From the NCBI RefSeq assembly GCF_003334385.1, contig NZ_QOWN01000080.1: a stretch of 5,623 bases of DNA; one strand, written 5' to 3'. A program made the translations under genes and the position numbers. Origin of the DNA: Escherichia coli. Lineage in GTDB: Bacteria; Pseudomonadota; Gammaproteobacteria; Enterobacterales; Enterobacteriaceae. Each line of letters opens with the position of its first letter. Position 1 is the stretch's first letter. The notes beneath the pieces are model-generated. The model was not told the origin of the DNA. It saw only the letters and a list, made by a program, of their open reading frames with translations, and did not search any database. This document shows positions 749 through 5,021 of the stretch, piece by piece.

Positions 749-1082
749 GATAAAAACGCTGCATCTGGTCCCGCGTGAAGGGATGCAGGTGAGTGAGAAA
801 CCGTCGGTGGTGAGGGTCCGGTTTGGTGACGGTTATGAACAGCGCCGACCGACGGGACTGAATGCCCGACTGAAGACATTTCAGGCAGTGTTCCGGGTGA
901 CGGATGAGGCGACCCGGCGCTGGCTGGATGAATTTTTATCGTGGCATGGTGGTTACCGTGCCTTTTTGTGGAAACCCCCGAAACATAACCGGACGGTCAG
1001 GGTGGTGTGCCGGGAGTGGAGTATTACGGATAACGCCAGGTACAGCGATTTCAGTTGTATGATGGAACAGGTAATAAGATAA
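741..1082 (+). CDS. M: Minor tail protein M (lambda gpM-like)
   Basis: 113-aa ORF. GTG start at 741 preceded by GGAGGAA (728-734). Contains VRFGDGY and GLNA-LKT motifs that I recall from lambda M. Start overlaps the H stop, suggesting translational coupling. Confidence 0.8.
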   Translation: MAEIKTLHLVPREGMQVSEKPSVVRVRFGDGYEQRRPTGLNARLKTFQAVFRVTDEATRRWLDEFLSWHGGYRAFLWKPPKHNRTVRVVCREWSITDNARYSDFSCMMEQVIR

Positions 1083-1288
1083 GTTTTTGAGAAAAAACCT
1101 AAAAGCATCGTTTATTAATTTGCTTGCTTGTTATTTTTGTTTTGTCTTGACATAAAGTGCTATCAAAGTTGTTTTTTTACATTTTGAAACAAAATAAAAA
1201 TTGAACCCGTAATTTAATTTACAATATTTTGAGTTTTGTTCATGACATCTCTATGCATGAATAGTTCAGTTTAAATAAGGATTAAATC
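1083..1288 (+). promoter_or_regulatory. AT-rich upstream region of the porin gene; probable promoter/regulatory region
   Basis: Sharp drop in GC relative to M. TTGACA at 1147-1152 and TTGAAC/TACAAT-like hexamers at 1201-1225 are present but none has ideal spacing. Shine-Dalgarno AAGGA at 1278-1282 precedes the porin ATG. The exact promoter cannot be fixed from sequence alone. Confidence 0.35.
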
Positions 1289-1357
1289 ATGAAAAAAATG
1301 ACAGTGGCACTTTCAGCTGTGGCAGCAGCTGTAATTTTTGCAGCGGGGGCGCAGGCT
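1289..1357 (+). other. Predicted Sec signal peptide of the porin (cleavage after AQA)
   Basis: Basic N-terminus (MKK), hydrophobic core, A-x-A site directly before the conserved mature porin N-terminus AEVYNK. Confidence 0.6.
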
Positions 1358-2452
1358 GCAGAAGTATACAATAAAGATGGCAATAAACTTGATGTGTATG
1401 GGCGTGCAACTGCACTCCATTATTTCTCCAGTGATAAGGGGGATGATGGAGATAAGACATACGCACGTCTGGGCTTTAAAGGTGAAACTCAGATTAATGA
1501 CCAGTTGACTGGTTTTGGTCAGTGGGAATATCAGTTCTCTGGTAATAAAGCTGAATCAGAGGGTGCTGCGGGTAATAAAACCCGTCTTGCATTTGCAGGT
1601 CTGAAGTTTGGTGAGTTTGGCACCATTGATTATGGTCGTAACTATGGTATTGCGTACGATGTTGGTTCTTATACTGACGTATTACCAGAGTTTGGCGGTG
1701 ATGGCTGGACCCAGACCGATAACTTCATGACAGCCCGTACTTCCGGGGTATTAACCTATCGTAATACAGATTTCTTTGGGCTTGTCGATGGCCTGAATTT
1801 TGCGGCACAGTACCAGGGTAAAAATGATCGGGGTGATCTCCGGAAAGCTAATGGTGATGGTCACGGTTTCTCAGCCAGTTATGAATATGAAGGTTTTGGT
1901 ATCGTTGCCGCATATATTAATGCGGACCGAACCAATAATCAGGAAAAAGGTCTGAATGGTACTCTGACGATTGAACAAACTGATCCTTTAACCGGTAAAG
2001 TGACTGAAAAGCAGATCGTTGTTGATTCCGGTAGTGTTGCAAAAGGTAAACACGCTGAGATGTGGGGAGTCGGACTAAAATACGATGCTGACAACCTTTA
2101 CCTGGCTACAACATATTCCGAAACTCAGAATCTGACGACCTTTGGTGATAAAGGAGTTGCAGATAAAGCGCAAAACTTTGAAGCGGTACTGCAGTATCAG
2201 TTTGATTTCGGTCTGCGTCCATCTCTGGCATTCCTGCAGTCTCGTGCTCAGGATGTCATTGTAGGTGGTAAAAACTATGGTGACCAGGATTTGGTTAAGT
2301 ATGTTGACGTAGGTGCGAAATATTACTTCAATAAAAATATGTCCACCTATGTTGATTATAAAATCAATCTGGTTGATGAGAATAAGTTTACCAGGGATGC
2401 GGGCATTGCAACGGATGATATCGTTGCTGTTGGTATGACTTATCAGTTCTGA
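1289..2452 (+). CDS. General bacterial porin, OmpC/OmpF/PhoE family, prophage-encoded (moron)
   Basis: 387-aa ORF with an RBS. Predicted signal peptide [23 protein letters not shown], then mature N-terminus [15 protein letters not shown], nearly identical to the enterobacterial OmpC N-terminus as I recall it. L3-loop PEFGG motif present. C-terminal ...YQF with terminal Phe typical of beta-barrel OMPs. AT-rich codon usage unlike the flanking tail genes. Confidence 0.9.
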
Positions 2453-2471
2453 TGATTACTGGTAAATAAAT

Positions 2472-2526
2472 ACAGGCCATCTGCCCTCACAGATGGCCTG
2501 TATCAGTGGAAGTTATATTTCCACTG
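2472..2526 (+). repeat. Two adjacent perfect hairpins in the porin 3' UTR
   Basis: Hairpin 1: ACAGGCCATCTG (2472-2483) pairs with CAGATGGCCTGT (2490-2501), 12-bp stem and 6-nt loop. Hairpin 2: CAGTGGAA (2504-2511) pairs with TTCCACTG (2519-2526). Neither is followed by a T-run on the + strand, so they look like stabilising or processing stem-loops rather than canonical terminators. Confidence 0.5.
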
Positions 2527-2610
2527 GTCACTGCGATCAGCTATTAGCTGATTTAATTTTCATTTTATTACCTTCATCGTTTTTGATTTTTTAATTGAAC
2601 TATTTTATCA

Positions 2611-2634
2611 GGGGCGCATTGCGCCCCTTTTTTT
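2611..2634 (+). terminator. Rho-independent terminator closing the porin cassette
   Basis: GGGGCGC-ATT-GCGCCCC stem-loop (2611-2627) followed by TTTTTTT (2628-2634). Lies 15 nt upstream of the L start codon. Confidence 0.75.
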
Positions 2635-2648
2635 ATGGGTGGATGTTT

Positions 2649-3347
2649 ATGCAGGAGATCAACGAAGAAAGCCTGAATGAGTCGGTTAAATCAGAGCAGT
2701 CACCGCGGGTGGTACTCTGGGAAATTGACCTGACGGTGCAGGGTGGTGAGCGGTATTTTTTCTGTAATGAGCTGAATGAAAAAGGGGAGCCGGTCACCTA
2801 GCAGGGGCGGAAGTACCAGGCATACCCGATTGACGGCAGCGGCTTTGAGATGAACGGGAAAGGGAGCAGTGCCCGCCCGTCACTGACGGTGTCGAATCTG
2901 TTCGGGCTGGTTACCGGGATGGCGGAGGATTTGCAGAGCCTGGTGGGGGCCACGGTGGTTCGTCGCCGGGTGTATGCGCGTTTTCTGGATGCGGTGAATT
3001 TTGTGGCAGGCAATCCGGAGGCTGACCCGGAGCAGGAGCTGACGGACCGCTGGGTGGTGGAGCAGATGTCGCAGCTCACAGCCATGACGGCCTCGTTTGT
3101 GCTGGCGACACCGACGGAGACGGACGGTGCGTTGTTTCCCGGCCGCATCATGCTGGCGAACACCTGTATGTGGACCTACCGCTCTGATGAGTGTGGTTAC
3201 ACGGGCGGGGCGGTGGCGGATGAGTTCGATAAACCCACCACCGATATCCGTAAGGACAGATGCAGCAAGTGCATGCGCGGGTGTGAACTGCGCAGGAATG
3301 TCGGCAATTTTGGCGGTTTCCTTTCCATTAATAAACTTTCGCAGTAA
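2649..3347 (+). pseudogene. L: Minor tail protein L (lambda gpL-like) interrupted by an in-frame amber codon at 2799-2801
   Basis: ATG at 2649 (MQEINEESLNE...) to TAA at 3345-3347 is 699 nt, matching the lambda L length as I recall it. One TAG at 2799-2801 splits it into 2649..2801 and the track ORF 2850..3347, but the 16 codons between the stop and the next ATG (QGRKYQAYPIDGSGFE) continue in frame and read as tail-protein sequence. The track ORF start at 2595 would span the terminator hairpin and is rejected. Confidence 0.7.
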
Positions 3348-4679: not shown

Positions 4680-4692
4680 AACATAAAAAAAT

Positions 4693-4717
4693 CCCGCAGT
4701 GATCGCGGAGCTGCGGG
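4693..4717 (-). terminator. Probable intrinsic terminator oriented for minus-strand transcription
   Basis: Inverted repeat CCCGCAG (4693-4699) and CTGCGGG (4711-4717). On the minus strand the stem is followed by T7 (plus-strand A-run 4685-4691). No T-run follows it on the + strand. Confidence 0.45.
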
Positions 4718-4788
4718 GACAGACAAATGAAGATTAATGTTAAGGAGTTGTTTTTGTTACTCGGGCAAAAAAACACTAACGCAGCGAA

Positions 4789-4816
4789 ATTATAAGCGCC
4801 ACAGTCAGTGTGTGAA
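4789..4816 (-). promoter_or_regulatory. Candidate sigma70 promoter on the minus strand (TTCACA-N16-TATAAT)
   Basis: Read on the minus strand: TTCACA (complement of 4811-4816), 16-nt spacer, TATAAT (complement of 4789-4794). Fires toward the minus-strand terminator at 4693-4717. Confidence 0.35.
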
Positions 4817-4890
4817 AATGTGAAGATATTCAGAATTTTTATGCCATTACCGGTTTTAACCAACAGGATTATCGGTGGGCATGAAAGAAA

Positions 4891-4918
4891 ACCCCGGTAT
4901 CTGCTGATACCGGGGTTT
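4891..4918. terminator. GC-rich hairpin with T-rich flanks on both strands; possible bidirectional terminator
   Basis: ACCCCGGTATC (4891-4901) pairs with GATACCGGGGT (4906-4916), 4-nt loop. Followed by TTCTGTTT on the + strand and by TTTCTTTCAT on the minus strand. Confidence 0.4.
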
Positions 4919-5021
4919 CTGTTTAGCATGGCAGAAATGTGTTTCATGCTTTTCGGGCGAAGGATATCCGACTTCTGTACGGAATGGCAAGTGGCGGTTA
5001 ATTTATTCAGGGGAAGGCTGT

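What the first reader, a model, noticed from the sequence alone, without database searches (positions are those of the whole stretch)
2453..2648. Structured 3' UTR of the porin gene abutting the L start
Two perfect hairpins (12-bp and 8-bp stems) follow the porin stop codon, and the actual T-run terminator lies about 160 nt downstream, ending 15 nt before the L ATG. The hairpins could be mRNA-stabilising elements, REP-like sequences or the scar of the insertion event. The right-hand junction coincides almost exactly with the L start, suggesting insertion into the M-L intergenic point.
Basis: seen in the sequence. Interest (0 to 1): 0.3.

Follow-up and report, generated by a model that had tools for sequence, protein, structure and literature searches.

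The report
IpeX-like sRNA behind prophage porin
The stretch after this prophage-borne porin gene is a diverged relative of IpeX, a known phage small RNA that shuts off the host's own porins OmpC and OmpF, so phage porin and silencer travel as one cassette; this is a new family member at a new insertion site, not a new kind of element.

Summary

Across ten sequence variants, all at the same M-L junction of E. coli lambdoid prophages, the hairpins keep pairing through compensatory changes. They are therefore selected RNA structure, not a scar or REP.

Its first 26 nt are conserved and antisense to the ribosome-binding regions of host ompF (14 contiguous bp) and ompC (22 bp over -14..+11). They pair poorly with the phage porin's own start region.

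The porin is NmpC-like (68% identity). Covariance models built from this family and from IpeX, the nmpC/lc 3'UTR sRNA of DLP12/PA-2, find each other reciprocally, and the two share an architecture.

Best explanation: an IpeX-family, 3'UTR-derived sRNA that lets a lysogen replace host porins with the phage porin. Expression, processing and repression are inferred, not shown.

Verdict: new member of a known kind, moderate interest.

The parts
1073..2648 (+). Whole inserted cassette (moron): AT-rich upstream region, porin gene, structured 3'UTR and terminator. It replaces the overlapping M-stop/L-start of porin-less relatives.
   Evidence: Junction alignment with porin-less phage ON470626. 28% of the window is uncovered in porin-less phages. 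The same placement holds in all E. coli and IMG/VR relatives.
1289..2452 (+). Porin gene, 387 aa, NmpC/Lc-family (PGAP calls it 'porin OmpC').
   Evidence: 68% identity to K-12 NmpC fragment 1 and 57% to K-12 OmpC. RefSeq annotation.
1260..1271 (+). Box AATAGTTCAGTT in the porin's own leader (-29..-18), complementary to the distal box of the 3'UTR.
   Evidence: 12-bp helix with 2593-2604. Complementarity is retained with each variant's own leader.
2470..2503 (+). Hairpin 1: 14-bp stem, loop CCCUCA (2484-2489; CCCUUA in other variants).
   Evidence: Three pairs show double compensatory changes and 98.6% of cells are paired. The loop is 91% conserved against 85% for the stems.
2504..2526 (+). 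Hairpin 2: 8 perfect bp, 10 with extension.
   Evidence: Four pairs show double compensatory changes and 100% of cells are paired.
2527..2534 (+). Invariant linker GUCACUGC, which differs from the RybB 5' seed GCCACUGC at one position. GUCA (2527-2530) is paired with the stop-codon UGAU (2450-2453) in the consensus fold; CUGC (2531-2534) is unpaired.
   Evidence: 100% conserved in 10 variants. It pairs with GCAGUGGC in the ompF (-43..-36) and ompC (-49..-42) leaders, the same 8-mer that RybB matches. GUCA pairs with UGAU in the RNAalifold consensus, four invariant pairs. The helix length is not significant on its own.
2536..2552 (+). Hairpin 3: 8-bp stem, longer with an internal insertion in other variants.
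   Evidence: one double compensatory pair; 98.6% of cells paired.
2553..2578 (+). Proximal seed module UUAAUUUUCAUUUUAUUACCUUCAUC, antisense to the host ompC and ompF translation-initiation regions.
   Evidence: 14-bp helix 2564-2577 with ompF -16..-3. 11-bp helix 2553-2563 with ompC 0..+10, plus 5+6 bp reaching -14. Energies are -18.9 (ompF) and -20.6 (ompC) against -7.5 (own TIR) and -9.9 (nmpC). Shuffles give 0/1000 and 1/1000. 90% conserved. Overlaps the weak Rfam MicF match.
2579..2609 (+). Distal, less conserved U-rich stretch. It includes box AAUUGAACUAUU (2593-2604), complementary to the porin's own leader, and the U-rich run just before the terminator.
2610..2634 (+). Rho-independent terminator: 9-bp stem with 7 G-C pairs, then U7. 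It is the 3' end of the porin transcript and of the proposed sRNA.
   Evidence: Top-ranked terminator in the scan. The stem is invariant in all variants.
2649..3347 (+). Tail gene L, immediately downstream and outside the cassette. In this window it is interrupted by TAG at 2799-2801.

Best explanation
The region 2450-2634 is a diverged member of the IpeX family. IpeX is a regulatory RNA made from the 3'UTR of a prophage NmpC/Lc-type porin gene.

Proposed mechanism. In the lysogen the cassette's own promoter transcribes the porin and its 3'UTR, and transcription stops at the terminator at 2610-2634. The 3'UTR, either whole (~185 nt, like the 167-nt IpeX) or cut by RNase E after hairpin 3 into an ~85-nt RNA, exposes a conserved AU-rich seed (2553-2578). 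This seed pairs with the Shine-Dalgarno and start-codon regions of the host ompF and ompC mRNAs and blocks their translation. The terminator hairpin, its U7 tail and the U-rich run before it would serve as the Hfq-binding module. The phage porin's own start region differs in the SD-AUG spacer and escapes. The outcome is replacement of the host general porins by the phage porin. That changes surface receptors (superinfection exclusion, as described for PA-2/Lc) and permeability. During lytic growth, Q-modified RNA polymerase would read through the terminator to express L-K-I-J.

Shown here: the structure and its covariation, family membership by reciprocal covariance models, conservation of the unpaired seed, and statistically unusual, correctly positioned complementarity to ompF and ompC.

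Inferred: expression, processing, Hfq dependence, actual repression, and the biological pay-off.
For: 1. Context. Every copy sits directly behind an NmpC-family porin gene (68% identity to NmpC, 57% to OmpC) in a cassette at the M-L junction.

2. Structure. z = -8.5. In 10 distinct variants 99.3% of cells are paired, against 37-46% when partners are slid. Eight pairs show double compensatory changes and 0/500 shuffles reach the covariation score.

3. Shared architecture with K-12 ipeX: three hairpins, an AU-rich single strand containing UAUUACC, then a GGGGCG terminator.

4. Reciprocal covariance models. Model R1, built from this family, finds ipeX as the best hit in the DLP12 locus (35.4 bits, E~3.5e-7) and a divergent ipeX (42.3 bits). 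Model R2, built from ipeX variants, finds window 2448-2639 (26.2 bits, E~6e-5) and the other variants, and nothing else in 96 kb. The L003/L004 variants (UUUCUGUUAUUACCUUUAUUGG) bridge to ipeX (CUUCUGUUAUAUAUUACCCUUUAUU).

5. Seed. There is a 14-bp contiguous helix with ompF -16..-3; only 2 of 6,662 background K-12 windows reach 14 bp. There are 22 bp with ompC -14..+11. Energies are -24.0 and -20.6 kcal/mol against shuffles at -11.6 +/- 2.6 (0/1000 and 1/1000). MicF on ompF scores -20.8 by the same method.

6. Discrimination. The proximal module gives -18.9 (ompF) and -20.6 (ompC) against -7.5 for the porin's own start region.

7. Conservation. The unpaired seed (90%) and linker (100%) are better conserved than the stems (76-85%).

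8. Targets. The ompF and ompC start regions are >=99% identical in 5,397 and 5,366 of 5,426 E. coli genomes.

9. Literature. IpeX is made from the nmpC/lc porin transcript's 3'UTR by processing and represses OmpC and OmpF (PMC12197685, PMC5069750, PMC8065619, PMC7177473, PMC3333887).
Against: - There is no expression, 3'/5'-end or interaction data for this element. All functional steps are inferred.
- There is no blastn-level similarity to ipeX: K-12-type loci were not among the hits, and GenBank phages gave no hit. Homology rests on covariance models with deliberately rough E-values, built from few independent lineages (about 4 groups; effective sequence number about 1). Hairpin-rich models can also score unrelated hairpins: the window's reverse strand scores 27 bits with R1.
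- AU-rich RNAs pair promiscuously. One of 40 unrelated K-12 start regions (yqeA) reached -23.9 kcal/mol with a patchy duplex.
- The whole single-stranded stretch also scores -20.0 kcal/mol against the porin's own leader, so self-targeting is not excluded.
- The seed is only about 50% unpaired in thermodynamic ensembles.
- The original IpeX study, as I recall its abstract and as the 2025 review paraphrases it, reported that ompC inhibition is not explained by simple complementarity and is Hfq-independent. That cautions against a pure antisense model.
Confidence: 0.68

Rival explanations
1. Passive 3'UTR. The hairpins only protect the porin mRNA from 3'-5' exonucleases or RNase E, and the terminator insulates the cassette. 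The AU-rich stretch would be a spacer with no trans-acting function.
For: Stable, covarying hairpins directly after a stop codon are compatible with stabilisers. No expression data exist. An intrinsic terminator is a standard part of phage morons.
Against: The best-conserved segments are unpaired: the linker at 100% and the proximal single strand at 90%, against 76-85% for the stems. The proximal module shows statistically unusual complementarity placed exactly on the SD/AUG of two host porin mRNAs. The homologous ipeX has trans-acting activity according to the literature.
Confidence: 0.15
2. REP/IRU-like dispersed repeat, or a scar left by the insertion event.
For: Perfect palindromes lie close to an insertion junction.
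Against: The 65-nt HP1+HP2 probe has 1-2 places per genome in 22 of 5,426 genomes. The whole UTR is found in 107 genomes and always behind the porin. The hairpins lie 120-180 nt inside the insert rather than at its edge. They covary across diverged cassettes. The same architecture follows nmpC at a different prophage site.
Confidence: 0.02
3. A captured or ancestral copy of the host micF gene, that is, a true MicF homologue (Rfam RF00033) rather than an IpeX relative.
For: Rfam gives a full-length but weak MicF alignment at 2546-2636 sharing UUUAUUACC.UCAU and the terminator (28.3 bits, E 0.49). It targets the same ompF region as MicF.
Against: The score is far below the MicF gathering threshold of 79 bits. 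Model R1 scores micF at only 13.9 bits but ipeX at 35-42 bits. micF lies upstream of and divergent from ompC, whereas this element lies downstream of and co-directional with its porin. Resemblance limited to the seed is what convergence on the same target would give.
Confidence: 0.05
4. A cis- or auto-regulatory element. The 3'UTR pairs with the leader of its own porin mRNA, for 5'-3' communication or negative feedback. The similarity to host porin start regions would then be a by-product of the stretch having originated as an inverted copy of a porin leader.
For: The distal box 2593-2604 forms a 12-bp helix with the own leader at -29..-18. Each variant keeps complementarity to its own leader: L002 has 13 perfect bp with changes on both sides, L003 has AACUGAAC:GUUCGGUU, and L004 has 13 bp with 2 G-U. 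The whole stretch aligns with the reverse complement of the leader.
Against: The distal box is among the least conserved parts (71%). It lies upstream of the SD. The proximal, best-conserved module fits the host start regions far better than the porin's own (-19 and -21 against -7.5 kcal/mol). This reading is compatible with, and not exclusive of, the trans-acting model.
Confidence: 0.1
5. A small protein is encoded in the UTR (33-codon ORF at 2493-2594).
For: An ATG-initiated ORF exists in the window.
Against: The ORF is absent or different in L003 and L004. Indels of 12 and 15 nt fall inside it in L003 and L004-type variants (alignment A3). The ATG lies inside the hairpin 1 stem and there is no SD.
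Confidence: 0.01

Closest known systems
IpeX, the sRNA from the 3'UTR of nmpC (cryptic prophage DLP12) and lc (phage PA-2); Castillo-Keller et al. 2006
   Same: It lies directly after the stop of an NmpC-family prophage porin gene and runs to a GGGGCG...U-tail terminator. The order of parts is the same: three hairpins, an AU-rich single strand containing UAUUACC, then the terminator. A CCCUCA hairpin loop is present in both. Covariance models hit reciprocally. The complementarity is to the ompC and ompF ribosome-binding regions, which are the two published IpeX targets.
   Different: No blastn-detectable similarity. It sits at the M-L tail-gene junction and is co-directional with the late operon, whereas ipeX lies between Q and the lysis genes and is antisense to them. 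The seed is retuned: here 14 bp on the ompF SD and 11+5+6 bp across the ompC start codon, whereas in K-12 ipeX there are 15 bp on the ompC SD (-21..-7) and 10 bp on the ompF SD. CCCUCA sits in the loop of HP1 here and of HP2 in ipeX. The function of this element is untested.
MicF (Rfam RF00033), chromosomal antisense regulator of ompF
   Same: It shares the core UUUAUUACC.UCAU that pairs with the ompF SD region. The predicted duplex energy is similar (-21.6 against -20.8 kcal/mol). It ends in a terminator, and an RNA cleaved after HP3 would be about 85-90 nt.
   Different: It scores 28.3 bits against a 79-bit threshold. The genomic context differs, since it is part of a porin mRNA 3'UTR with no promoter of its own detected. 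It also matches ompC, which MicF does not (-13.6 kcal/mol).
RybB, the sigma-E-dependent repressor of many outer-membrane protein mRNAs
   Same: The invariant linker GUCACUGC differs by one base from the RybB 5' seed GCCACUGC and matches the same GCAGUGGC sites in the ompC and ompF leaders.
   Different: The resemblance covers only 8 nt. A helix of this length is common by chance (4.4% of windows). The rest of the RNA is unrelated.
3'UTR-derived Hfq-dependent sRNAs of enterobacteria (e.g. CpxQ, SroC, DapZ, MicL) and lambdoid phage 'morons' (Juhala/Hendrix)
   Same: The parent mRNA's terminator is reused as the sRNA 3' end, with a seed upstream of it. The cassette has the moron layout of its own upstream region plus gene plus terminator inserted between two phage genes.
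   Different: Processing by RNase E and Hfq binding are not shown here. The regulator and the gene it rides on act on the same cellular function, porin composition.

Membership tests
IpeX (nmpC/lc 3'UTR sRNA) | Located in the untranslated region between the stop codon of a prophage NmpC/Lc-type porin gene and its Rho-independent terminator. | tested here: met
   The porin is 68% identical to NmpC. The UTR spans 2453-2609 and the terminator 2610-2634. The same arrangement holds in all 10 variants.
IpeX (nmpC/lc 3'UTR sRNA) | Sequence and structure homology to ipeX of DLP12/PA-2. | tested here: met
   No Rfam model exists and blastn fails. Reciprocal covariance models succeed: R1 to ipeX at 35.4-42.3 bits, and R2 to window 2448-2639 at 26.2 bits with no other hits in 96 kb. 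E-values are rough and the lineages are few.
IpeX (nmpC/lc 3'UTR sRNA) | Produced from the porin promoter as part of the porin transcript and processed to a stable RNA of about 167 nt. | not testable with these tools
   No sigma-70-like promoter was found on the + strand inside or just before the UTR, which is consistent with co-transcription. No transcript data are available.
IpeX (nmpC/lc 3'UTR sRNA) | Lowers OmpC and OmpF expression post-transcriptionally. | not testable with these tools
   Only complementarity could be tested. It is unusual and sits on the SD/AUG of both mRNAs.
MicF (Rfam RF00033) | Covariance-model score at or above the curated gathering threshold (79 bits). | tested here: not met
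   28.3 bits, E 0.49.
MicF (Rfam RF00033) | Independent gene divergent from ompC. | tested here: not met
   The element is downstream of and co-directional with a prophage porin gene.
REP / IRU-type dispersed extragenic palindromes | Many copies dispersed in intergenic regions of the host chromosome. | tested here: not met
   1-2 places per genome, in 22-107 of 5,426 genomes, always in the same prophage context.
Lambdoid phage moron | An extra gene with its own terminator (and promoter) inserted between two genes that are adjacent in related phages. | tested here: met
   M and L overlap in ON470626 and are separated by 1,576 bp here. The terminator is present. A promoter was not identified by the simple scan, so that sub-feature is inconclusive.
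Hfq-dependent sRNA (Hfq-binding module of Ishikawa/Otaka/Aiba) | Terminator hairpin preceded by a U-rich stretch and followed by a long poly(U) tail. | tested here: met
   UAUUUUAUCA precedes the stem and U7 follows it. Actual Hfq binding is not testable here.

The most novel reading that the evidence does not exclude
The porin-plus-3'UTR unit is a self-contained, mobile 'porin-swap' cassette. Its RNA would be a composite of several seeds: a TIR antisense retuned between lineages to ompF and/or ompC, a RybB-like GUCACUGC linker, and an anti-SD CCCUCA loop. It would also pair with a co-varying box in its own leader. On this reading the single-stranded stretch arose as an inverted copy of a porin leader and has since been tuned to silence host porins while sparing, or feedback-controlling, its own. 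IpeX-family repression of ompC would then be ordinary base-pairing at the SD (a 15-bp helix in K-12 ipeX), contrary to the published view that complementarity does not explain it.
Probability: 0.3. Interest if true: 0.6.

Novelty: new member of a known kind. Interest (0 to 1): 0.4.

Why it matters
If this is right, about 2% of complete E. coli genomes (107 of 5,426), many of them STEC isolates, carry an unannotated regulator of the two major porins. Every copy is currently labelled only as 'porin OmpC' followed by blank intergenic DNA.

Such lysogens would be predicted to show altered OmpC/OmpF levels. That has consequences for phage receptor availability, for antibiotic permeability, and for interpreting porin phenotypes in clinical isolates.

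It also shows that the IpeX module is an evolving family that moves between prophage sites and retunes its seed, not a one-off of DLP12/PA-2. The variants form a natural series for testing how IpeX recognises ompC, which the literature leaves unresolved.

Tried and rejected
- Rfam. Only a sub-threshold MicF match and a spurious miRNA match inside the porin CDS. Rfam has no IpeX model, since K-12 ipeX gives no hit.
- blastn of the UTR against GenBank phages: no hit.
- blastn against E. coli genomes: it found only the same M-L cassette and not ipeX, so sequence similarity alone could not link the two.
- Unrestricted RNAduplex on whole RNAs: it gave meaningless long patchy duplexes. I replaced it with windowed duplexes, contiguous-helix counts, and shuffle and genomic backgrounds.
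- The original IpeX paper (PMC1347279) is not held. Its content is cited from memory of the abstract and through later papers.
- Literature searches for a prophage or phage-encoded porin at this site returned nothing.
- REP, insertion scar and small-ORF readings were rejected.
- Search for an internal promoter for an independent sRNA gene: none by the consensus scan.
- The Tree et al. 2014 EHEC prophage sRNA paper was checked for the I-J intergenic candidate and for ipeX. It had nothing relevant.

Full report
WHAT THE WINDOW IS

The window is the tail-tip region of an E. coli lambdoid prophage. In order it holds:
- the end of tape-measure gene H (to 748);
- M (741-1082);
- a 387-aa porin gene (1289-2452);
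- the region in question (2453-2648);
- L (2649-3347), K, I (to 4679);
- a 342-bp gap;
- the start of J (5022 onwards).

The same arrangement, with RefSeq annotation 'porin OmpC' between 'phage tail protein' (M) and 'minor tail protein L', occurs in 107 of 5,426 complete E. coli genomes. It comes in four sequence groups that are 100, 87, 76 and about 73% identical in the UTR.

OBSERVATION CHECK

- HP1 is 2470-2483 / 2490-2503. It has 14 perfect bp, not 12, and loop CCCTCA.
- HP2 is 2504-2511 / 2519-2526.
- A third perfect 8-bp hairpin (2536-2543 / 2545-2552) was missed.
- The terminator stem is 2610-2628 with T7 at 2628-2634. It starts 158 nt after the stop and ends 14 nt before the L ATG.

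The UTR folds 8.5 standard deviations better than dinucleotide shuffles.

Against a porin-less relative whose M stop overlaps the L start (ON470626), homology is lost after 1072 and resumes at the L ATG.

THE HAIRPINS ARE SELECTED RNA STRUCTURE, NOT REPEATS OR A SCAR

A 65-nt HP1+HP2 probe finds 1-2 places per genome, in 22 genomes only.

I collected 10 distinct UTR variants from E. coli genomes and IMG/VR viral contigs. Every one is followed by the L start. On their alignment:
- 99.3% of pair cells are standard pairs, against 37-46% when the partners are slid;
- 8 pairs carry double compensatory changes (3 in HP1, 4 in HP2, 1 in HP3);
- no shuffle out of 500 reaches the covariation score.

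The terminator stem is invariant. No ORF in the UTR is conserved.

THE OVERLOOKED PART

Between HP3 and the terminator lie 57 unpaired, AU-rich nucleotides (2553-2609). Rfam in permissive mode aligns 2546-2636 end-to-end with MicF. The score is weak (28.3 bits against a threshold of 79). The shared letters are UUUAUUACC.UCAU, the part of MicF that covers the ompF Shine-Dalgarno sequence.

I tested this against the K-12 ompF and ompC start regions. These are >=99% identical in 5,397 and 5,366 of 5,426 E. coli genomes.
- ompF: 2564-2577 forms a 14-bp contiguous helix (one G-U) with -16..-3, AUGAGGGUAAUAAA. Only 2 of 6,662 45-nt windows from 50 kb of K-12 reach that length.
- ompC: 2553-2563 forms 11 bp with AUGAAAGUUAA (0..+10). 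After one mismatch and one bulge, pairing continues for 5+6 bp to -14, giving 22 bp in all.
- Energies: -24.0 (ompF) and -20.6 (ompC) kcal/mol, against -11.6 +/- 2.6 for 1,000 dinucleotide shuffles (0 and 1 shuffles as good). MicF on ompF scores -20.8 by the same method.
- Discrimination: the first 26 nt alone give -18.9 (ompF) and -20.6 (ompC), but only -7.5 with the phage porin's own start region and -9.9 with nmpC.

Conservation also fits a seed. The proximal module is 90% conserved and the linker GUCACUGC 100%. The hairpin stems are 76-85% conserved and the rest of the single strand 71-73%.

LINK TO IpeX

The porin is closer to NmpC (68%) than to OmpC (57%).

In K-12, the DNA between the nmpC stop and its terminator is ipeX, which is not annotated in RefSeq. 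According to the literature it is a 167-nt RNA made from the nmpC/lc porin transcript by processing, and it represses OmpC and OmpF. The original 2006 paper was not available.

K-12 ipeX folds into the same order of parts:
- a long hairpin;
- an abutting 8-bp hairpin, with loop CCCUCA;
- a third hairpin;
- an AU-rich single strand (AACCUUCUGUUAUAUAUUACCCUUUAU);
- a GGGGGCG terminator.

blastn does not connect the two, and Rfam has no IpeX family. I therefore built covariance models in both directions.
- The model from the M-L family finds ipeX as the top hit in the DLP12 locus (35.4 bits, E~3.5e-7), and a divergent ipeX variant in IMG/VR loci (42.3 bits). micF scores only 13.9 bits.
- The model from nine ipeX variants finds window 2448-2639 (26.2 bits, E~6e-5) and the other M-L variants. 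It finds nothing else in 96 kb, which includes 50 kb of unrelated K-12 DNA.

The L003/L004 variants (UUUCUGUUAUUACCUUUAUUGG) are visibly intermediate to ipeX (CUUCUGUUAUAUAUUACCCUUUAUU).

The ipeX single strand itself forms a 15-bp helix with the ompC SD (-21..-7) and a 10-bp helix with the ompF SD. The divergent ipeX gives 15 and 14 bp. The family therefore keeps complementarity to the two host porin start regions while the exact register changes.

MECHANISM (INFERRED)

In a lysogen the cassette is transcribed on its own and terminates at 2610-2634. The 3'UTR, whole or cleaved after HP3 (a GA|UUU RNase E-type site at about 2550), acts in trans. Its seed occludes the ompF and ompC ribosome-binding sites. 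The terminator hairpin, U7 tail and preceding U-rich run match the Hfq-binding module described by Aiba's group.

Host porins would be replaced by the phage porin, as described for PA-2 lysogens. The late-operon polymerase must read through the terminator to reach L, which is the usual solution for morons.

None of these steps is shown here.

CAVEATS

- The covariance-model E-values are rough, and the sequences represent few independent lineages.
- AU-rich RNA pairs easily: one of 40 unrelated start regions reached -23.9 kcal/mol, though with a patchy duplex.
- The full single strand also scores -20.0 kcal/mol on the porin's own leader.
- The seed is only about half accessible in predicted ensembles.
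- The literature describes IpeX action on ompC as not explained by simple complementarity.

RIVALS

- A purely passive stabiliser-plus-terminator UTR (0.15). This is disfavoured because the unpaired segments are the most conserved.
- An autoregulatory 5'-3' pairing element (0.10). It is compatible with the main model.
- A true MicF homologue (0.05). It fails the Rfam threshold and the context test.
- REP or insertion scar (0.02) and a small ORF (0.01). Both are rejected.

VERDICT

The element is best filed as a new, diverged member of the IpeX family, carried with an NmpC-type porin in a cassette at a previously undescribed site, the M-L junction.

This is a useful annotation and a good natural variant series for settling the IpeX mechanism. 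It is not a new kind of system. Interest 0.4.

Noticed in passing
window 2799-2801: Tail gene L carries an in-frame TAG where all 11 relatives that share the flanking sequence have TGG (Trp). L would be cut to 50 aa, so this prophage is probably tail-defective, unless this is an amber allele or a sequencing error.
   Followed up: partly
window 4680-5021: A 342-bp non-coding insert lies between tail genes I and J, which to my recollection are adjacent in lambda (not checked here). It is shared at 99% with PPompW and Stx prophages and is unannotated or labelled hypothetical there. On the minus strand it has a near-consensus promoter (4816-4789, 11/12 matches) and a terminator (4709-4693 plus T-run), which would bracket a candidate sRNA of about 95 nt. 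There is also a bidirectional-looking hairpin at about 4889-4925. Rfam gives no hit and the fold z-score is only -1.2.
   Followed up: partly
window 2593-2604 with 1260-1271: The distal box of the 3'UTR (AAUUGAACUAUU) is complementary to the porin's own leader (-29..-18). Each variant keeps complementarity to its own leader: L002 has 13 perfect bp with changes on both sides, L003 has AACUGAAC:GUUCGGUU, and L004 has 13 bp with 2 G-U. The whole single strand reads like an inverted copy of a porin leader. This may be autoregulation, 5'-3' communication, or a relic of its origin.
   Followed up: partly
window 2527-2534: The linker GUCACUGC is invariant in all 10 variants. It differs by one base from the RybB 5' seed GCCACUGC and matches the same GCAGUGGC in the ompF (-43..-36) and ompC (-49..-42) leaders and in the phage porin CDS (+13..+19). 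An 8-bp helix is common by chance (4.4% of windows), so this is only a lead.
   Followed up: partly
window 2484-2489; L005 (K-12 DLP12) ipeX hairpin 2 loop; L070 hairpin 2 loop: The hairpin loop CCCUCA (CCCUUA in some variants) is conserved while the stems around it covary, both here (HP1) and in both ipeX types (HP2). It is complementary to UGAGGG, found in the ompF SD and at about -65 in the ompC leader. It may be a second, loop-exposed anti-SD site.
   Followed up: no
L005 2360-2529 minus strand (K-12 ipeX) against L006 (ompC leader): K-12 ipeX contains AACCUUCUGUUAUAU, a 15-bp complement (one G-U) to the ompC SD region at -21..-7. This seems at odds with the literature statement that complementarity does not explain its action on ompC. 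The original paper could not be read here.
   Followed up: partly
window 1068-1082: The insertion rewrote the last residues of M (...EQVIR* here against ...EQVVN* in porin-less phages) and abolished the M-stop/L-start overlap. L now depends on a GGGUGGA Shine-Dalgarno-like sequence 7 nt upstream of its ATG and on read-through of the terminator.
   Followed up: partly
window 1083-1288: The AT-rich region of about 200 bp upstream of the porin gene presumably holds the cassette's promoter. The simple sigma-70 scan found none on the + strand. The leader motif AAUAGUUCA is shared with the nmpC leader.
   Followed up: no
GenBank phage collection: No deposited phage genome contains this 3'UTR, although 107 E. 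coli chromosomes and 32 IMG/VR contigs do. The cassette seems known only from prophages so far.
   Followed up: no
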